Assembly (NCBI GenBank): GCA_964016885.1
Contig: OZ024756.1
Coordinates: forward strand, 31,248,001-31,312,000
DNA from: Eledone cirrhosa
Taxonomy: Eukaryota
DNA length: 64,000 nucleotides
Reading direction: 5' to 3'
Positions 4,606-63,852 of this stretch are shown here, piece by piece. How positions within the stretch are numbered: the stretch's first letter is position 1; each line of letters begins with the position of its first letter. The position numbers and the translations under genes were made by a program. The notes beneath the pieces were generated by a model. That model was not told where the DNA came from. It saw only the letters and a list, made by a program, of their open reading frames with translations, and made no database searches.

Positions 4606-4803
4606 TAGGAAAAAGTATGACCCCGACGGCAGAGCTCAAGCCGTTTCGACGGCTATTTCTATACAGTCTAGAAATAGCCGTCGAAACAGCTTGAGCTCTG
4701 CCGTCGGGATCATACTTTTTCTTATTACCCACTCTACTACCCTAAGTATTGAGTACTCTGGTGCGTTATGGTCTATCTGGTTCCTTACCACAATTCCTTC
4801 GTT
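4606..4803 (+). mobile_element. Family A fold-back element (hammerhead-derived palindrome plus ~80-bp tail) in (TA)n
   Basis: ~56-bp inverted arms 4606-4724, then CCCACTCTACTACCCTAAGTATTGAGTACTCTGGTGCGTTATGG...CCTTCGTT; flanked by (TA)n. Confidence 0.9.
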
Positions 4804-4816
4804 ATATATATATATA

Positions 4817-5004
4817 GGGCGGTAGATTGGCAGTATCGGTAGAGAGTCGGATGCCATGTTTTCTAGCATAGTTACGTCCCTTTACGATCTGAGTTCAAAT
4901 CCCGCCGAGGTTGACTTTGCATTTCATCCTTACGGGGTCGATAAAATAAAGTACCAGTAATGCACTGGGTAATTGCTGGCCTTGTGCCTAAAGTAGAAAT
5001 AGTT
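4817..5004 (+). mobile_element. tRNA-derived SINE (family S1; central domain resembles the Meta/MESC type)
   Basis: A box TGGCAGTATCGG, B box GAGTTCAAATCC, body CTTTGC(C/A)TTTCATCCTTACGGGGTCGATAAAATAAAGTACCAG; about 30 copies in the window. Confidence 0.9.
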
Positions 5005-7805: not shown

Positions 7806-8718
7806 ATATGTCACCTTCCAATAATTATGCTTCATCTAACGACGCCGAACAACATTGATGCTACATAGGGACATCAACATATTTTATTCTACTCTGTAGT
7901 ATGATCTAAACCATCATTCATGCAGCCATTATAACAAACATGATACAGCTGCAAACATCTTAAACATGCAGCAGTTAGATTCTGTTAAATACTCAGTGAA
8001 GTCATGTTCTTTCATCTTCTATGTTTGCCTCCTAAATCAATGATAAATTACTTTCTGCGTTTCTTTTTTTTTTTCATCCCTGTGCAAATCAGTTGTAAGT
8101 AAAATACATTTTCCAAAAATATGGTGTCTAGCTACAAACTTAAGATATCCCACCTCCACATCACACTACTCATGTTCTATTCAATCATCTTATCAATAAC
8201 CAACGTGCATCTGCCTATCATTGTCTCTCTTTCCGCTCCTGTCATTCTCTTTCTTCCCTGTTATTTTTACCTATACATTTTTTTCACTCGCTCCCTCTGA
8301 TTCGATCTCTGTTATCTCTCTCCTCCTCACTCTTTCTCTATCACTCACTCTTTCTCTCTCTCTCACTTACTCGCTTTATTTCTCTCTCTCTCACTTACTC
8401 TCACTCTCTCTCTCTCTCTCTCTTACTCGCTTTATCTCTCTCTCTCTCTCTCTCTTACTCACTTTACCTCTCTCTCTCCCTCTCTTTCCCTTACACATTG
8501 TCTCTCTCTCTCTCTCTCTCTCTCTTCTATTTACGCTATTGGTCATGTTTTCCTTAAACAAACGAAGACGATGTGAAGCAGAAATGATGTTTTAGTGTTG
8601 CCGAGAACCTAATAACCGTAGTAACGCTGGCACTATGATAACATTCACGTAATACTGCACTCTTTTAACTGGTTGACCTAATAGAAATACTCGGGCCGTA
8701 AAAAATGTAATGAAATAT

Positions 8719-9380
8719 AATTGTTTCTACTTTTGGCACAAGGCCAGCAATTACCCAGTGTATCACTGTACTTTATTTTATCGACCCCGTAACGATGAAA
8801 GGCATTTGAACTCAGACCGTAAAGGGGCGTAAATATGCTAGAAAACATGGCGTCCAACCCTCTACCGTTACTGCTAATTCACTGATATATAATTGTTTTT
8901 ACTTTTGGCACAAGGCCAGCAATTATCCAGTGCATTACTGGTACTTTATTTTATCGATCCCGTAAGGATGAAAAGCAAAGTTAACCTCGGCGGGATTTGA
9001 ACTCAGAATGGCAAGGGCCGTAACTCTATGCGTCAAAGCATGGCGTCAGACCCTCTACCGATACAGTCAATCCAACGAAAATGAAACATCGGCCTCCGAC
9101 ACGTTGTGAGGCTCAGTAACCATTTATATATATATAACAATATTGCATATCTATAATCTTTGATATCCATTTATCATCGGGTCTCATAAGTATTGGATAC
9201 GGTAGATTGCGGTAGAGGGTCCGACGCCATGCTTTGCAACATAGTGTTATGACCCTTTACTGTGAGAGTTCAAATCTCGCCGAGGTTAAATTTGCCTTTA
9301 ATCCTACGAGTTCGATAAAATAAGGTACCAGTAATGCACTGGGTTAATTGCTGGCCTTGTACCAAAAGTAGAAACACTTA
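8719..9380. mobile_element. Cluster of three S1 SINEs (8719-8882 -, 8891-9073 -, 9199-9380 +)
   Basis: Match to the S1 consensus on both strands. Confidence 0.88.
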
Positions 9381-10126: not shown

Positions 10127-10582
10127 CATTAAGTGTGTGTGTAATAAAAATAATAAAATGGACTGGTTATAACTGGAATGCCTTTGCTCTCAGTCTAACC
10201 CTTTCAAGTTTGATTCGAGACCAAACAATCACCGCATTATAGCCAAACAAGAGAGCATCTCCATGGCATGGTTGTAATTCATGCTAGAAGTGGCAGTCAA
10301 AAATACTTAAAATCACACAGTAGTATCTTTAAACAAAGAAACACAAAACGAAAAGAGCACCTCGACAAAGTAGTTCTAGATATAGGGAAAATCGATAAGA
10401 CGGTCACGGCTGGAAGATTTTTTATCATAAATCTATTCATTCATGACTGAATTGTGGCGACACATTACCTACAACATCAATATCACTATCTCAGTAATAA
10501 CAACATCAACATCACCACCAGCACTATCAACAACAACACAAACTACAACATCAACATCACCAATATTTCCACCGCTAATAAC

Positions 10583-11018
10583 AATTTCTAGTACAGGCAC
10601 AAGGCCAGTAATTTGGGGGAGGAGAAAGTCGATTAAATCGAACCCAGTACCTTATCGACACAGTAAGGATGAAAAGCAAAGTTAATCTCGGCGGGATTTG
10701 AACTCAGGCCATAAAGGGCCCTAACTCTATGCTGTAATTCATCGTGTCCGACCCTCTACCGATACTGTGCCAAGCCACCGCCATAATAATAAGGGTTACT
10801 TATATAGGCACAAGGCCAGAAATTTGGGGGAAGGGTAAAGTCGATTAAATCGACCCCAGTGCGTAACTGGTACTTTATTTTATCAACGCCGTGAGGATGA
10901 AAGGCAAAGTTAACCTTGGCGGGATTTGAACTCAGATCTAAAGAGGCGCAAAGGGCCATAACTCTATGTTGTAAAGCATGGTGTCCGACTTTCTACCGAT
11001 ACTACCAATCCACTGCCC
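10583..11018 (-). mobile_element. Two tandem S1 SINEs (long variant)
   Basis: Reverse-complement S1 with the extra GTCGATTAAATCGA segment. Confidence 0.88.
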
Positions 11019-11854
11019 TCTTCCACCATTAATAACATCATTGATAACAAGTAAAACCTAACAGACAAACCAGCAAAGCTATCAGAAAATTATTTCGGAA
11101 AGATAAACAAGAAAAAAAAATAAATTAAAATAAAATTAAATAAAATAAAATAATATAAAATAAAATAAAATAAAATAAAATAAAATAAAATAAAATAAAA
11201 TAAATAAAATAACAAACATAACAAAAAACATCAGAAACTAACGACAATAACTATCATAATAAAAAAGATATGAAACTAAACCCAAATGCCTTTTGGATAC
11301 ATAATCTTAATTGAGGGTATTAAGTTCAGAAAGATTAAACAGGAGAGTCTTACAACTCGACTGCCTGAAGCCAATAAAAATTTCCTTTTACTTTTGGTTT
11401 TGATTTTGGTGTCATGTATATTTATCTAATTTTATTTGCTATATATATTTTCTTCGTTATACTTTTGGAGAAAAATTTTGGTAAAAATATCTAAAAAAAA
11501 AGAAAATCGAAAATAGAATATTGTCTATCTATAAGTTTATTTTTATGTGTGTGTAGTGGTTTTTTGTTTTTTGTTTCTTTGATTTGGGGGGCTTCTTTTT
11601 TTTTTTTAATTTTAGTCGAGAGCTTTAGGGAAAAACTGAATTAAGTTAGGTTTAAATCATATAAAATATATAATCAAAAAAAAAAAATAACGTCAACAAC
11701 ATACTTTGCAATATTGTGTTCGTATAGGAAGACATGACAACAACAGCACAGGGGGCGAATGAACTTAAAGGGAGAGACTCAACATTCCTGTAGTATACTC
11801 TACTAACAAATATAGACTTCAAATTTAGGCAGAAAATTTGGATTTCAAAGCTGA

Positions 11855-13288: not shown

Positions 13289-13324
13289 TCTTTTGATGAA
13301 GGACCTGCGTCCGAAACGTTAAGA
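13289..13324 (+). ncRNA. Minimal hammerhead ribozyme motif (C3->U) in a TA-flanked element (13268-13413)
   Basis: TCTT TTGATGA a GGAC-ctgc-GTCC GAA ACGT T AAGA; downstream part recurs inverted at 23832-23895. Confidence 0.7.
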
Positions 13325-13412
13325 GCCTCTTCCAACTATATCAAGCGTTAACCTAATATATTCCTTCCATATACTGTACCGATGTTGTTGTCATTTCTGT
13401 TTACCTTTTACA

Positions 13413-24177: not shown

Positions 24178-24736
24178 CGCCGAGGTTGACTTTGGCTTTC
24201 ATCATTACGGGGTCGATAAAATAAAGTACCCGTGATGCACTAGGTAATTGCTGGCCTTGTGCCTAAAGTAGAAACAATTATTATACAAAGTTTATTATAT
24301 ATTTTTTTCATTGTTAAATTGGTTTTGCCATTATGCAATTTAATTCGAGGTTATTGTAACCCCCCACCCCCCACCCCACTGCTCGTGTCTTTGTATTGTC
24401 CCCTATATGTCGGCCCTTGTGGGCCTTGGGATTGGCAGTATCGGTAGAGGGTTGGACGCCATGCTTTGACGCATAGAGTTACGGCCCTTGCCATTCTGAG
24501 TTCTAATCCCGCCGAGGTTAACTTTGCCTTTCATCCTTACGCGGTCAATAAAATAAAGCACCAGTAATGTACTGGGGTCGATTTAATCGACTTCCCCCTC
24601 CCCCAAATTACTGGCTTTGTGCCTATATAAGAAATCATTATTATTATCATTATTATTATCATCCTTACGGGGTTGATAAAATAAAGTACCAGTAATATAC
24701 TGGGTAATTGCTGGCCTTGTGCCAAAAGTAGAGATA

Positions 24737-34886: not shown

Positions 34887-35074
34887 ATAGATAGATAGAT
34901 AGATAGATATATGAATGTATATATAGTGTATTTGGTAATACACTGTATGCTTAATTAAAAGCATTTTGAAGACCTTACGCTATTGTTTTAAAGTAGCGAC
35001 TATGTCACTTACTTGAATTACTGGAATTCTATATGAATCCAGCATTCATAATTTTCAACAAACAAGTGGAGTGC

Positions 35075-35122
35075 TGAGCTCTGAGGAATACCAAGAGTAT
35101 GAAACAGAGATCTGTCAGCTTA
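35075..35122 (+). ncRNA. Hammerhead ribozyme motif inside a ~104-bp inverted repeat
   Basis: TGAGCT CTGAGGA ATAC-caaga-GTAT GAA ACAGA-ga-TCTGT C AGCTTA: intact core, GUC triplet, 6-bp helix I. Confidence 0.8.
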
Positions 35123-35276
35123 TCTCCCTTTGTTTCTTCAACAAAGAAGTAAGTGACATAGCGACTACTTTAAAACAATAGCGTAAGGTCCTCAAAATGC
35201 TGTTAATTAAGCATACAGTCTATTACCAAATACACTATATATACATTCATATATATATATGTGTGTGTGTACACAC

Positions 35277-35362
<86 letters not shown>

Positions 35363-36109
35363 GCAGTAACTTCATAAAAACATACATACATACCTACTTA
35401 CATACATATATGCATATTTAAATATATACACAAACACACACACACATATAAATATGCAGACACACGTCTTTATACATACATATATATGTGTGTGTGTGTG
35501 TGTGTATGACATATATATATATATCATATATATACATATGTGATATATATATGTATATATATAAATATGTCTGTGTATCTGTCTATATACTTATATGTTT
35601 ATACAAATCTGACGTATGATGTATGTATAAAGCGAATAAGTAATTCCTCTAACAAATTTATCGTTATTCTATCCTAATACTTTGATATTTTTACATAAAA
35701 GCAATCATCCAACCTAATGTCTATCAATCTTTTATTTCTTTTCCTAGTTTTCCTCTTCTCGGAGACATTTTTTCACTCGGTTTTAGAAAGCGGACAGTGA
35801 AACCTAATCTTTCATCAGGATGAAAGGAAATCGTGGTCATGTTAAACTACCATTCACAGCTACACAGCTACACAGCTACACAGCTACACAGCTACACCTA
35901 TCCTCGTTCATATTATATCACACATAATACGACTATCATTCTGGTTCACGATTCAGACCCAACATGTGTCATTTCGAGAATATTCTCATCATTTCCCACC
36001 CTTTCAGCTTCCTTTAGATGGCTGCTAAATCGATTGTTTTCTCAAGAGAAAAACCAACTAAATTCAGTGTTTCGAAATCAGTTCAATGCTCTAATTATCA
36101 TCATAATAA

Positions 36110-36700
36110 TAATTGTTTATACGCTTGATACAAGGCCAGATATTACCCCCAGTGCATTACTGGTGCTTTATTTCATCGACCCCGTAAGGATGGCAGGCAA
36201 AGTTAACCTCCGTGGGATTTGAACTTACGCCGTAAAAGGCCGTTTATCTATGCTCCAAAGTATGTCGTCCGACCCTCTACTGATACTGCGAATCCACCAC
36301 CAATCATAGAAATATTAATAATAATATGGCAGAATTGGTAGAGCGTCGGACGCCATATTTCGTAGCATAGAGTTACGTCCCTTTACTTTCAGATATTAAA
36401 TACCGCCGAGGTTAGCTCTGCCTTTCATCCTTACGGGTTCGATGAAATATAGCACCAGTAATGCACTGGGATAATTGCTGTCCTTGTGCCAAAATTAGAA
36501 ACATTATTATCATCCACATGGCGGATCGGCAGTATCGGTAGAAGGTTCGACGCCATGCTTTGCAGCATAGAGAACACCCCTTTATGTTCTGAGCTCAAAT
36601 CCCGCCGAGGTTCATTTTGCCCTTCATCCTTACGGGGTCGATAAAATAAAGTACCAGTAATGCACTGGGATAATTGCTGGCCTTGTGTCAACAATTATTA
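36110..36700. mobile_element. Three S1 SINEs (36110-36300 -, 36327-36505 +, 36518-36700 +)
   Basis: Match to S1 consensus. Confidence 0.88.
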
Positions 36701-36719
36701 TCATTATCAATGTTTAGTT

Positions 36720-38674: not shown

Positions 38675-40068
<1,394 letters not shown>

Positions 40069-44040: not shown

Positions 44041-44144
44041 CGAAGGAAATGTGGTAAGGAACCAGGTGGACCATAACGCACCAAAGTACTCAATACTTGA
44101 GGTAGTAGAGTGGGTAATAGGAACCAGTAAGACCCCCTTACTGG

Positions 44145-50461: not shown

Positions 50462-50492
<31 letters not shown>

Positions 50493-50864
50493 CATTTTTA
50501 TATATTCTCCAATCTATGTAGAGAAAAAATTCGTTGTTGCTTACTGCTATTTTTTTAGCAGCCAAGCCATTAACAAGTCTATAATATTCCCGCTTGCTCT
50601 AGTGGCCAGGTCACGTACGGGTCACTTTAACGGCTATAGCCCATACGTGCTGGTAGTTAGCATTATATTTACTGACCGTGGGACAAATGTCCTATAGAAT
50701 GGAAATAGCTATCTGAAGAAATCTACTTTCCGTTGGAAATTCTCCAAATTTCCAATCTTTTGTAGATGGAAACCGCCGGTAATAGCATTATGAACAGGTA
50801 GATATTTAAATTATTTTTTAATTTATTTAAAGGATTGTTTAATGTTTGTTTGTTCTGCTCATCA

Positions 50865-50908
<44 letters not shown>

Positions 50909-51313
50909 CTTTCACTACAATCTCGTATTTAGTATTTTTCTCCACCTATTAAACTTTTCTATAGTTTAGCAATACCAATGAGAGATTTGGTGATTGGGGG
51001 GATGGAGTAGTTACCGGAAATTGTTTTTTATATATATTTTTTTTAATATATTTATTTCCTCATTTACTTATTCCTTCAGTCCCCCCCCCCCTTCTCCAGT
51101 ACACTTTTTTCGACCTTCTATACATCATTCTTAGAATCTACTGTATAGATTTCACTTTCAACGCTTGACTGGGTTTCCCCCACTCCCTCTTTGTTCTACA
51201 GGCAAGTTCAGCTACCCTTACCTTCCACTAAATGCCATGATAGAATCATCTATCTTTACAACAAATTTTTGACCAATCCTTTTGACAATTACTATCTTCC
51301 CATATATGAAATT

Positions 51314-51408
51314 ACCCCCTGAGAAGTTCGGCTATTTATTTACCAGGCTAAACATTTTTATATAGTCCCGAATTAGCCCCGAAATGGCCTGAGCTCTGCC
51401 GTCGGGGT
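51314..51408 (+). ncRNA. Near-complete parental hammerhead of family A
   Basis: ACCCC CTGAGAA gttc GGCTA...TAGCC cc GAA ATGGC-ctgagctct-GCCGT C GGGGT: helix I ACCCC/GGGGT; core differs from CTGANGA at one position. Confidence 0.7.
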
Positions 51409-52384
51409 CATACTCGTTCCTATATATATATATATATATATATACATGCATATACACATGTAGATAGAGAGATATGAAATGGTGTTCTACGTGTGACATA
51501 AGCTTTCGTGATGATTAAATAATTCCAATACTTTCATCAAAGTACTTCGATTATTTATCGATGTCGTCGTCTGAAATTTTCAATAACTTCTTAGAGAATT
51601 TAAGTCACGATTTAATTAGATAAAAAGGAAGAAGCTTTAAGTTTACTTCGCATCACTTTTCGAACAATGATTCCTTTTCAATGTCAGACTAAAAGCTTTA
51701 AGGCATTTACTTTCTTCCTTTTAAAATCCAGGTTTGAAAAAAATGCCACTGTTTTAACTTTGCCTTTCATTTCAATTCTAGGTAGGATCGATAAAATAAA
51801 CCCAGATTACTGTTATTGATTTTGTAGTTGTTATTGTTTTGCTCGTTTCAATTGTTGATGTTGTTTTTGTTGTTGTTTTGCATCAAACCAGATCTAATCA
51901 ACCAGACAGATCGATGATCAAAGGCAATTTAACCATGCTCATCCGGGTTTTTTCCTTAGAAATAACTAATCAAGCTACAGATTTACAATGTGTGCTTCCT
52001 ATCTAAGTTGGTAGGATTTGGATTGAATAAATTTGCCCTTTTATTTCTAGCATGTAAAATGACTCTGTTCATACAATTAGGTGTCAGAAATATGAGCTAT
52101 CATGAATATCTTCTCTGCTATATTTTCCCTGCAGCCAATATCTTGCAACTGTTCAAGGAAGCCAACAACACTGCTACTCATATCGCATTGGGAGTAGGGA
52201 AAAGCTGGGAAGGCCATGGATACGACACCTTACTAAGAGAAATTACATTACCAAAATATCAAATCTGATTAAGTAAAGTAAACTACTAAGCTCAAAGTGG
52301 TTCCAACCTTGACAGTCGCATAAAGGCGTATTAGAACCCATATATTATATGTCTACGTATAATGATTTATTTATTCTTTACTTC

Positions 52385-53462
52385 TAACATAGTCCCAATT
52401 TATTGAGCGGAAGAAAAAAGTCGATAAAATCGACTCCAATAGTTGACTGGTATTTTACTTTATCGACCCGGGTAGGATGAAAGGTAAAATTGACGCCGAC
52501 TGGATTTGAACGTAGAAGGTTATATCTAAATAGTGCAAATAATTTTATCAGACGCTCGACAGATACCATCGTATACGTATGTCTACTGTAGTCTCGCTGT
52601 GACTATTTAAACAGTGATTATGTCACATATCATTGTTTCTACTTTTGGCACAAGGCCAGCAATTATCCTAGTACATTACTGGTACTTTATTTTATCAACC
52701 CCGTAAGGATGAAAGGCAAAGTTAACCTCGACGGGATTTGAACTCAGACGGTAAAGGGACGTAACTATGCTAGAAGGCATGGCGTCCGACCCTCTACCGA
52801 TACTGCCACAAATAGAATGCTGTGCGATATTCATTCCGTCTCTCTGCTCTCTGAGTTCAAATGCCACAGTCGTCAACTTTACCCTTCATCCATTGAGGTC
52901 GATAAAATGTAACAATCTAGTATTGGGGACTTTTATTAAAATATCTATTTAAAAATAGTGTGACAACTTCTTTCCGTCCGAGACCTTTAATACCCAATTT
53001 TTTAGAGTATTTTTCATAGTAAAAGAATACGTTGGACCTTCTAAATTTTCAATAAATATATAACCACTCAACAGATCTAAAAATATTCCATTGGTGGTTT
53101 GGCAGTATCGATAGAGGTTCGAACGCCATGCTTTTCAGCATAGAGTTACAGCCCTTTACAATCTGAGTTCAAAACCCGCCGAGGTTAACTTTGCCTTTCA
53201 ACTTTACGGAGTCAATAAAATAAAGCACCAGTAACGTACTGGGGTCGATTTAATCGACTTTCCCTCTCCCCAAATTACTGGCCTTGTGCCTATACTAGAA
53301 ATCATTATTAAAATATCATCGGAGGGATTTGGACTTTACGGACTGAGTTCAAATCCCGCCGAGGTTAACTGTGTCTTTCATACTTACGGGGTCGATGAAA
53401 TAAAGTACCAGTAATGTACTAGGGTAAGTGTTGGCCTTGTGTCAAAAGTAGAAATAATTATT
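52385..53462. mobile_element. S1 SINE cluster (52385-52570 -, 52632-52810 -, 52845-52930 +, 53092-53310 +, 53335-53462 +)
   Basis: Match to S1 consensus at varying divergence. Confidence 0.82.
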
Positions 53463-53983
53463 AAATTAGCAGTCCACTGTTAGTAATCAATTATAAGCTC
53501 TCGAGTTTATCAAAACGCAAATTCTCCCAGTGTGTATGATTGTTCATATATCTGGTAATAGACCCAGGTATATACAGCATACAAATAAAGATACATTGAC
53601 GACACGGGTTCACTAGTTACTAAATAAATATCTTTGAACAGATTTAATTAAGAAGCTGTAATAAATTTTGGAAGTATCTGGTAATCTTTCAGTGTTTAGA
53701 ACATTCCAGAGACACAGAAAAATAAAATTCAAATATACTGAAGACTTAATACATAATTTACTAAGAAAGAAAGAAATATATTTCAACTAAAATAAGAATC
53801 GATATGATTTAAAAGCGCCTGGTACATTTACATATATACATACAAGTATATTCGCTTTTATATATATGTATATATATATATATATACGCATTTACATATA
53901 TATATATGTATTAACACAAGTTCATATATATATATGTATATATATATATACATATATGTATATATAATATATATATATATATA

Positions 53984-61435: not shown

Positions 61436-62644
61436 AGAATATTATGTTTATGTTATATAAGAATGCATCGAAGGTATAGACAAAGAGGATGATGATGATG
61501 ATGATGATGAGGAGGAGGAGGAGGAGGGGGGGGGGGGGGGAAACGGGGGGGTAGTAAACGAAGAATTTACTCTATATATAAACAAACACACACCTTGGTA
61601 TAACTCATTAAAAGTTATTGGCGGGGGGGGGGATCTGCAGAGTTTCCGTTTAACCAATTCCATTCACAAGATTTCGGTTGATTCCAAGCAGCACAATGAG
61701 ATTCTTAATTTTGTTTTTGTTGTTGTTTTCTTGTATTTTATTCTTGTTGTTTATTACCAAGAGTCTGTACTGATCAAATGAATTCCAGCTGTCACCAAAC
61801 TTTAGTTTATCTTAGACCATATGTGTTCAAAAATTTATTATCAAATGTATTCTTCTTACACATTGGCCAATATAGTCTAGACATAGAAAAAGGAGACGGA
61901 TTGTCTTTGTTGGAACACCTGTATAATTATTCTGTTTTCTAAATCAGGGTTGACCCGAATTTAACCAATAATATCACAATTGCTACCAACGTTAACAGCA
62001 ACAACAACAACAACATTAAACCAACCATAGCAACGCTTTATTTCAAGCAGTCGATCTTTTTTAAGACATTCAATTTTCATTATATCAATCATCCTCTTTA
62101 AATTGACAGCAATATTCGGACAACGTTGAGGGAATGGAGTTGGAATGGAGGTGGAAAGGAGGTGGAAAAGAAGTGGAAAGTAGGTGGATGTCGTGGTAGG
62201 AAGGTTGTTATCACATGTCTAATTCTGATAGAATGCTTCTCGTTTCTCCTAATCCCATTTCCTTTCAGCAATATCGATTAGATTCAATGTCACTTACAAA
62301 TTAGTACCAGCAGGCAATCCACAATGTGTTCCAGAATATTAAAACTGAAAAACGAAAACAATAAATCAATAGTATAGAACTATATGAAAAAAAAGAATAT
62401 TTTTTATTGGATTTCAACATCGAAAAACGTGGCTTTATTATTATGCAAGACTAGAAAGCCTCATGTTGTGAGCTTTAGAGATATTAAGAAAGAATATTTA
62501 TAATGAAGGTAACCATATCCTCACACACCATTGCTAATTATTTTAGAACAAGACAACACTCAATGATTCTTCTAAGTCGCTTGACCTCCTAGAAATAATA
62601 GCTAAATGTGCTTGCATACATTAATTTCAAAACTCTTATTATTA

Positions 62645-63425
62645 TTAACTGCATCAGGCGGTGGATTGGCAGTATCGGTAGAGGGTCGGACGCCATGCTT
62701 TCCAGCATAGAGTGACGTCCCTTTACGATCTGAGTTCAAATCGCGCCGAGGTTGACTTTGCCTTTCATCCTTACGGGGTCGAGAAAATAAAGTACCAGTA
62801 ATACATTGGGTAATTGCTGGCCTTGTGCCAAAAGTAGAAACAATTATTTAATAACTGCATCAGGCGGTGGATTGGCAGTATCGGTAGAACGTCGGACACC
62901 ATGCTTCGTTGCATAGAGTTACGGCCCTTTATGATCTGAGTTCAAATTGCGCCGAGGTTAACTTTGCCTACGATCCTTAGGGGGTCGATAAAATAAAGTA
63001 CCAGTAATGCACGGTTATAATTGCTGGCCTTGTGCCTAAAGTAGAAACAATTATTAATAACTGCAATAGGGCGGTCGATTAGCAGTATCGGTAACCAATG
63101 CTTCGTAGCATAGAGTTACGGCCCTTTACGTTCTGAATTCAAGTTCCGCCGAGGTTAACTTTACCTTTCATCCTTACGGGGTTGATAAAATAAAGCACCA
63201 GTAATACACTGGTGCCCATTTAATCGATTTTCCCCTACCCCAAAATTGCTGGCTTTGTGCCTACAGTAGAAACAATTATTATTAATAACCGCAATAGGGC
63301 ATTTGATTGGCAGAATCGGTAGAGCGTCGGACACCATGTTTGTGGTATGGAGTTATGTCCTTTTACGGTCTAAGCTCAAATTCCGCCAAGGTTACCTTTG
63401 CCTTTCAACCTTACAGGGTCGATAA
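62645..63425 (+). mobile_element. Head-to-tail array of four S1 SINEs
   Basis: Copies at ~62657, 62863, 63069, 63297, each preceded by the spacer TAAC(T/C)GCA. Confidence 0.9.

Positions 63426-63852
<427 letters not shown>

What the first reader, a model, noticed from the sequence alone, without database searches (positions are those of the whole stretch)
51314..51423. Surviving parental ribozyme of family A with an enlarged helix II
Seen: the only copy where the arm is preceded not by its mirror image but by ACCCC-CTGAGAA, complementary to the GGGGT after the cleavage site, with GGCTA/TAGCC closing a ~40-nt helix II insert. About 400 bp of unique upstream DNA (50905-51313) lies between (TA)n tracts. 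Inference: this is a longer, less truncated remnant of the master element and ties the palindromes to a hammerhead. The G8->A change would probably inactivate this copy.
Basis: partly seen in the sequence, partly recalled or inferred. Interest (0 to 1): 0.75.

Follow-up and report, generated by a model that had tools for sequence, protein, structure and literature searches.

The report
Long-stem hammerhead in Penelope-type repeat
This is a decayed, unusually long copy of a very abundant animal repeat that is likely the end of a Penelope-like jumping gene; related copies are predicted to fold into a hammerhead self-cutting RNA with an oversized stem and, likely family-wide, an odd catalytic core whose activity is untested.

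Summary
The motif is real: helix I, CTGAGAA, a 55-nt helix II span, GAAA, helix III and a GTC cleavage site at 51304-51423. It is the only one of 18 family-A arms in the window that keeps the 5' half. Public reads show that the 'unique' upstream 400 bp is a high-copy repeat, and gap-free contigs link it to the core and the long helix II. So this is a less truncated copy of a likely (TA)n-targeting Penelope-like element; no protein gene was seen. The 'private G8->A' idea is not supported: in 2 of 4 runs all five A>G places lie outside the core, so the A is likely the family state. The box fits the Penelope consensus CUGANGAH with N7 missing, or a C3/A8 mismatch; none of 56 published motifs has either. 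This copy is decayed in its stems (27 of 32 named pairs). With majority letters all 32 pair and the predicted fold has all three helices. Activity is untested, and a U3-A8 subfamily is not excluded. A second long-helix-II hammerhead with a canonical box lies about 600 nt upstream. Rfam misses both.

The parts
50871..50904 (.). (TA)n tract at the 5' boundary of the copy
   Evidence: sequence
50905..51313 (+). upstream body of the repeat (inferred pseudo-LTR); single in the window, high-copy in reads; longest stop-free frame 67 aa
51174..51201 (+). pyrimidine tract ending in CAG, a candidate splice acceptor (untested)
   Evidence: sequence; one contig in run X3 joins 50969 to the letters at 51202-51211, but there is no GT at 50970
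51307..51311 (+). distal helix I, 5' strand (pairs 51417-51421); 2 of 5 pairs broken in this copy, 5 of 5 with read-majority letters
51314..51318 (+). proximal helix I, 5' strand ACCCC
51319..51325 (+). 5' core box CTGAGAA: CUGA-GA-A (N7 missing, extra A before G10.1) or C3/A8 mismatch; likely the family state
   Evidence: comparison with 56 motifs
51326..51380 (+). enlarged helix II: G10.1-C11.1, small U loop, 9-bp lower stem (51329-51337/51371-51379), internal loop, 7-bp upper stem (51346-51352/51361-51367), 8-nt loop; 3 pairs broken and one base missing in this copy
51381..51384 (+). GAAA core box (G12-A15.1)
51384..51402 (+). helix III, 5 bp, with a palindromic loop containing GAGCTC
51401..51403 (+). 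GUC triplet; predicted cleavage between 51403 and 51404
   Evidence: sequence; hammerhead numbering
51404..51408 (+). proximal helix I, 3' strand GGGGT
51354..51374 (+). stretch in which the 5' ends of 14 of the 17 other arms in the window fall
51409..51423 (+). internal loop and distal helix I 3' strand; tail-less 3' end (CCTAT) of the copy
51421..51444 (.). (TA)n tract at the 3' boundary

Best explanation
This is a decayed, less 5'-truncated copy of a high-copy repeat that is likely the pseudo-LTR of a (TA)n-targeting Penelope-like retroelement, and its family is predicted to fold into a type I hammerhead with a two-segment helix II and a likely family-wide one-base-short core (CUGA-GA-A), which would cut slowly or only with help. 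Shown: the anatomy; the link to the short inverted arms and their optional tail of about 85 nt; the repeat nature of the upstream DNA; the family-wide length of helix II. Inferred: the element's endonuclease nicks TA tracts and its reverse transcriptase starts at two internal sites, the tail's far end and the CCTAT end. Two short cDNAs give the inverted arm-plus-tail insertions. Most cDNAs stop in the upper part of helix II, while this one ran on for at least 519 nt. Templates were mostly uncleaved, since 16 of 17 other arms run through the cleavage site. After insertion this copy lost stem pairs and is predicted to be inactive for that reason. Of the readings of the core I rank 'N7 missing plus the usual extra base, weak or protein-assisted cleavage' first (about 0.35 on its own).
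For: Inverted arm plus optional tail in (TA)n at 13 tail loci and 18 arms matches the published Penelope-like insertion pattern (PMC8557442 passages). Two internal RT start sites that define the tail, and a protein-assisted ribozyme that is dispensable for insertion in vitro, are reported in PMC11167929. Reads cover all 29 bins in 4 of 4 runs; contigs X1-8, X3-23 and X3-24 span the core and helix II with 0 gaps; X2-16 spans 51244-51408. In X1 and X3, 5 of 5 A>G places lie outside the core, and none of the 12 listed indels falls at 51297-51423. Majority letters take the named pairs from 27 to 32 of 32 and give an unconstrained minimum-energy fold with helices I, II and III; the helix II region goes from z -0.4 to z -4.0. 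Ten random substitutions plus one insertion gave the three helices in 0 of 1000 trials. 54 of 56 published motifs carry an extra base before helix II, consensus CUGANGAH, which makes the final A the expected extra base.
Against: No RT or endonuclease sequence was found or linked, so membership and clade rest on structure alone. The core state is read indirectly: 112 substitution rows and 4 indel rows were not shown, and 8 of X1's 16 C>T places are hidden, so T at 51319 in up to about two thirds of copies (a U3-A8 core) is not excluded. The 65% figure is my inference from the shares of the 40 listed rows. Copies too diverged to align at 80% are invisible. The majority letters may come from different subfamilies; A at 51373, for instance, is polymorphic among window arms, and two changes (51379 and the added base) rest mainly on window arms. 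The distal helix I and upper helix II were named after seeing the alleles. G10.1-C11.1 has pair probability only 0.1 in the model, and 54 of 1000 random variants reached the same energy. I found no precedent for an active core lacking N7. The tail is longer than the 30-40 bp in PMC8557442.
Confidence: 0.6

Rival explanations
1. Same element, but the family's ribozyme is catalytically dead (C3/A8 mismatch or lethal loss of N7). The family spread anyway, and the helices were kept for another role, such as protein binding, or were simply inherited from a recent founder.
For: C3-G8 single mutants abolish cleavage without affecting insertion in vitro (PMC11167929). 16 of 17 arms run through the cleavage site, and no pile-up of read ends is listed at 51404 (6 of 7 rows shown).
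Against: GAAA, GTC and all three helices hold in majority letters, and GAAA plus the palindromic loop recur in diverged subfamily arms. One arm (44136, minus strand) starts exactly at the cleavage site, though 1 of 17 could be chance.
Confidence: 0.3
2. The active master has the known U3-A8 covariant core (UUGAGAA). This copy belongs to a sub-lineage with C at position 3.
For: U3-A8 is natural and active (PMC3088659 section 8) and occurs in 2 of 56 Penelope-type motifs. Hidden C>T rows could include 51319. One joint seen in X1 and X2 resumes alignment at 51320 with 37 letters on its shorter side.
Against: A private T>C would appear as a near-100% row, as 51309 and 51389 do, and none is listed. 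Both published U3-A8 motifs have an 8-nt box, whereas this one would have 7.
Confidence: 0.2
3. One reading: the master has canonical CUGANGA and this copy alone was inactivated by G8->A.
For: This copy does carry other private lesions. A canonical subfamily too diverged to align at 80% would be missed. One unlisted A>G place exists in X2 and in X6.
Against: In X1 and X3 all 5 A>G places are outside the core; gap-free spanning contigs exist; no indel is listed in the core.
Confidence: 0.07
4. The 5' half is not a ribozyme half but a deletion-riddled mirror arm, from decay or a long-read error in a palindrome; ACCCC, CTGAG, AAG and CGGCTA do occur in that order in the mirror arm.
For: The word order is shared with the mirror arm, and the mirror also contains CTGAG.
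Against: Global alignment to a mirror arm scores 0 with many gaps. Independent contigs carry the same 5' half without gaps, joined to the upstream DNA.
Confidence: 0.02

Closest known systems
Type I hammerheads in pseudo-LTRs of metazoan Penelope-like elements (Cervera & de la Pena 2014, PMC4209133; read parts 1-2 of 4 and supplement file 2 parts 1-2 of 3)
   Same: Type I topology, 5-bp helix I, G10.1-C11.1, palindromic loop III, an extra base before helix II, and most genomic copies truncated.
   Different: Helix II span is 55 nt against at most 23 nt in their 56 motifs (read by eye; their descriptor limits size). Helix III is a stable 5 bp. The box CUGAGAA is absent from all 56.
Penelope-like insertions with inverted 5'-truncated copy and tail; Naiad and Neptune microsatellite targeting (Craig et al. 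2021, PMC8557442; 12 of 22 passages seen)
   Same: Inverted truncated arm, optional tail, (TA)n targets. They also note eight Naiad 'half core' cases with the two boxes 35-50 nt apart.
   Different: The tail is about 85 nt, not 30-40. No ORF was seen, so the clade is undetermined. Naiads are described as lacking canonical hammerheads.
Poseidon element of Anolis carolinensis (Frangieh et al. 2024, PMC11167929; parts 1-2 of 4)
   Same: Hammerhead followed by two RT start sites that bound the tail; AT-rich targets; cleavage not needed for insertion in vitro.
   Different: It has a C3-G8 core with tested activity; here nothing is tested.
Natural core-variant hammerheads (Perreault et al. 2011, PMC3088659; passages and section 8); extra base between A9 and G10.1 (De la Pena & Flores 2001, seen only as a citation)
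   Same: Natural cores tolerate some changes (U3-A8, A6C, insertions).
   Different: No N7 deletion or C3/A8 active variant is named in the text I read; figure panels and supplements were not seen.
Non-LTR retrozymes (PMC7229834, passages; bioRxiv 10.64898/2026.07.22.740005, part 1 of 5)
   Same: Non-coding, type I hammerhead, related to Penelope-like pseudo-LTRs.
   Different: Retrozymes are head-to-tail tandem units; no tandem unit of this family is seen here.

Membership tests
Type I hammerhead ribozyme | Three helices around the core, open helix I | tested here: met
   32 of 32 named pairs with majority letters; 27 of 32 in this copy, which is predicted to misfold
Type I hammerhead ribozyme | 5' box C3 U4 G5 A6 N7 G8 A9 (or U3-A8) | tested here: not met
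   CTGAGAA in this copy and likely in the family; a U3-A8 subfamily is not excluded
Type I hammerhead ribozyme | G12 A13 A14 A15.1, U16.1, H17 | tested here: met
   GAAA 51381-51384, GTC 51401-51403; retained in window arms
Type I hammerhead ribozyme | Rfam hammerhead model score | tested here: not met
   the models also miss two canonical-box motifs in the window, so the test is weak
Type I hammerhead ribozyme | Self-cleavage after H17 | not testable with these tools
   no assay available
Penelope-like element | Inverted 5'-truncated copies and optional tail | tested here: met
Penelope-like element | Dispersed high-copy repeat with 5' truncation, AT-rich or microsatellite targets | tested here: met
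   18 arms in 64 kb, mostly ending in (TA)n or the tail; arm depth about 6-7 times core depth
Penelope-like element | ORF with telomerase-like RT and GIY-YIG endonuclease | tested here: inconclusive
   none in 50490-51423 (longest stop-free frame 68 aa); no genome is held; the rest of the window was not scanned against protein families
Penelope-like element | Retained spliceosomal intron in the pseudo-LTR | tested here: inconclusive
   acceptor-like site 51174-51201; no RNA data
Non-LTR retrozyme | Head-to-tail tandem units, each with a hammerhead | tested here: not met
   no tandem unit of this family in the 150 of 222 TRF rows shown or in self-comparison

The most novel reading that the evidence does not exclude
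A Penelope-like family in thousands of copies uses a natural hammerhead whose core lacks position 7 (CUGA-GA plus an extra A) and is still active, supported by a 55-nt two-segment helix II. Such long-helix-II hammerheads, one more of which lies about 600 nt upstream, escape Rfam and published descriptors and may account for some (TA)n-targeting elements reported to lack a ribozyme.
Probability: 0.25. Interest if true: 0.7.

Novelty: new variant of a known kind. Interest (0 to 1): 0.45.

Why it matters
Hammerheads in Penelope-like repeats are known, so the link itself is ordinary. Two things are not in the papers I could search: a helix II more than twice the size of the 56 listed motifs, seen here in two different motifs, and a 5' core box that seems non-canonical across a successful family. 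Either result of a simple cleavage assay is informative. Activity would add a natural core lacking N7. Inactivity would give a genome-scale case of a Penelope-like family spreading without cleavage, which bears on the open question of what these ribozymes are for.

Tried and rejected
No whole genome is held, so no true family alignment could be built. Rfam found no hammerhead. Pattern scans: 0 hits in metagenomes and viral contigs for the arm; 3 metagenome and 16 prokaryote hits for 19-mers, all 19 rejected as chance because identity did not extend beyond about 24 nt. No RNA holder was listed. Earlier-scan look-ups by sequence or place found nothing. Mirror-decay or sequencing artefact: rejected. 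The helix I register first tried for the distal stem was off by one and was corrected. Coding signal in the tail: an ATG opens 12 stop-free codons in 12 of 12 full tails, but minority letters by codon position are 9/14/16, so it is no evidence of coding. One arm starting at the cleavage site (1 of 17) was judged too weak as evidence of cleavage. A transcription start inside helix II (TTAGTC at 51362-51367 resembles the Drosophila initiator, recalled) could explain the clustered 5' ends, but in D. virilis Penelope the start lies upstream of the intron and ribozyme; it is kept only as a minor idea. Paper searches for an N7-less core and for octopus plus hammerhead plus Penelope found no precedent. 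Lunse et al. 2017 was not held, and supplement file 1 of PMC4209133 could not be searched; either may list such variants.

Full report
OBSERVATION. The window is AT-rich, microsatellite-laden DNA of animal type. An abundant dispersed repeat in it resembles an octopus SINE, but that is recalled and no call tests it. At 51314-51408 the sequence shows ACCCC, CTGAGAA, a 55-nt segment from G51326 to C51380, GAAA, a 5-bp helix III with a GAGCTC palindrome, GTC and GGGGT. A profile of the arm finds 18 arms in the window, and only this one has the 5' half. ACCCCCTGA arises in 0.5% of simulated upstream stretches. A relaxed hammerhead descriptor finds 4 loci in the window against 1 in ten shuffles. Rfam finds no hammerhead, and this copy folds no better than its shuffles (z -0.9).

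THE FAMILY IN THE WINDOW. The typical locus is (TA)n, an inverted arm, a direct arm, a tail of about 85 nt and (TA)n; 13 tail loci were found. One arm ends at CCTAT directly on TA, the other continues into the tail. This matches the inverted 5'-truncated copy with optional tail described for Penelope-like elements (PMC8557442 passages). It also fits the two internal reverse-transcription start sites shown for the Anolis element (PMC11167929). The copy in question is of the tail-less type. Of the 17 other arms, 14 have 5' ends in 51354-51374, on the 3' side of helix II, and three start further 3'. Sixteen of 17 run through the predicted cleavage site; one starts at it.

THE FAMILY IN READS. No genome is held. 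Of eight listed runs I laid four at 80% likeness: three contig sets of one sample and one reduced-representation raw run, so at most two samples. Whether they are the window's species is not shown. All 29 bins are covered in all four runs. Summed contig depth in X1 is about 814,000 on the arm, 115,000 on the core and 330-58,000 upstream, against 5-20 for single contigs. The tool warns that this is no copy number, but it shows the upstream DNA is part of the repeat. Contigs X1-8, X3-23 and X3-24 span the core and helix II with no gaps, and X2-16 spans 51244-51408 with two. The long helix II and the spacing of the core are thus family traits, and the mirror-decay idea fails.

THE CORE. Table 1 counts five A>G places in X1 and five in X3; table 3 lists five, all outside the core (tally). 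So G at 51324 is under 5% in those runs. X2 and X6 each have one more A>G place that is not shown. No row is listed between 51310 and 51352, and none of the 12 listed indels lies in the ribozyme. The 40 listed rows all reach about 65% in some run, while 112 rows are hidden, among them 8 C>T places in X1. T at 51319 in a large minority of copies therefore cannot be excluded. In the 56 motifs of Cervera and de la Pena, read by eye, every box is YUGAN(G/A)A; 54 have a further base before helix II; the two with A8 have U3; none lacks N7 or pairs C3 with A8; and the longest helix II span is 23 nt. Their descriptor demanded such boxes, so this set is biased. Against the consensus CUGANGAH the simplest reading of CUGAGAA is N7 missing with the usual extra base.

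DECAY OF THIS COPY. Ten majority letters and one added base were taken and from window arms. With them the named pairs rise from 27 to 32 of 32 and the unconstrained fold contains helices I, II and III, with mean pair probabilities of 0.58-0.93. In this copy helices II and III are at 0.01 or less. Random changes of the same number gave the three helices in 0 of 1000 trials, though 54 reached the same energy. Caveats: the letters may mix subfamilies, two stems were named after seeing them, and G10.1-C11.1 is weak in the model (0.1).

HOW IT LIKELY WORKS. Inferred from the anatomy and from PMC11167929: the element's protein nicks TA tracts and copies its RNA from two internal sites. Short cDNAs join into inverted insertions and usually stop in upper helix II, by stalling or because the RNA begins there. 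Rare ones run on through the pseudo-LTR, as here. The ribozyme would cut after C17 slowly, as a dimer through the palindromic loop, or with protein help, which fits mostly uncleaved templates. Odds for the core: N7-less and weakly active 0.35, dead family-wide 0.3, U3-A8 master 0.2, private G8->A 0.07; the remainder is unassigned.

A SECOND CASE NEXT DOOR. At 50708-50786 on the same strand, beyond a (TA)n tract, lies a motif of different sequence: 5-bp helix I, CTGAAGAA (an exact CUGANGAH box), a helix II of 6 bp, a 5x5 loop and 10 bp (z -4.4, 0 of 200 shuffles), GAAA, a 3-bp helix III and GTA. It has no second copy in the window and was not covered by the read call, so whether it belongs to the same element is open. 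A third, short canonical motif is at 35076-35121 inside a 102-bp inverted repeat. Rfam misses both. Craig et al. mention eight Naiad cases with core halves 35-50 nt apart, which may be the same kind of structure.

COMPARISON AND VERDICT. It works like the hammerhead-bearing pseudo-LTR of a Penelope-like element. Membership in that class is supported by insertion structure but not by a protein gene. Strict hammerhead membership fails on the 5' box and on Rfam, and activity is untested. Searches for a precedent found none for an N7-less core or for helix II of this size in a Penelope-like motif. Lunse et al. 2017 and some figures and supplements could not be seen, so absence from print is not established. 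Two earlier scan notes were seen as leads only and not checked. I rate it a new variant of a known kind, interest 0.45.

Noticed in passing
window 50708-50786 (+): A second long-helix-II hammerhead-like motif with the canonical Penelope box CTGAAGAA; helix II folds at z -4.4. It has an A.G opposition at the base of helix II, no Rfam hit and no second copy in the window. An ATG and an AG/GT follow within about 20 nt.
   Followed up: partly
window 35076-35121 (+), within 34913-35248: A short canonical type I hammerhead (CTGAGGA, 4-bp helix II, palindromic helix III) between 102-bp inverted repeats of 94% identity: likely a second Penelope-like family.
   Followed up: partly
window 51362-51367 and homologous arm starts (e.g. 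4665+, 14137-, 39952+, 47622-, 63672-): 5' ends of short arms cluster near the AGT of a TTAGTC/TCAGTT word, recalled as initiator-like, in the upper stem of helix II; it could be a start site or an RT stop.
   Followed up: partly
window 44117-44136 (-): One direct arm begins exactly at the predicted cleavage site; 1 of 17, may be chance.
   Followed up: partly
family-A arms, e.g. window 39961-39978: AGCCGTC occurs twice in the arm, so AGCCGT-CGAA-ACGGCT can form a hairpin that hides the GAAA box, a possible off-switch in truncated or nascent RNA (from the sequence).
   Followed up: no
family-A tails, e.g. window 4766-4801: An ATG opens 12 stop-free codons to the tail end in 12 of 12 full tails; codon-position variation (9/14/16) does not support coding.
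   Followed up: yes
window 51174-51201: Pyrimidine tract plus CAG, acceptor-like; one contig joins 50969 to 51202 without a GT donor.
   Followed up: partly
window 4817-5003, 8711-9077, 10569-11035, 24429-24736, 36104-36707, 52627-53466, 62630-63548 and others: A dispersed repeat with up to 27 overlapping matches in self-comparison; recalled as resembling an octopus SINE, not tested.
   Followed up: no
window 13289-13325 (+): A weak minimal-hammerhead candidate with TTGATGAA box and 4-bp helices; may be chance.
   Followed up: no
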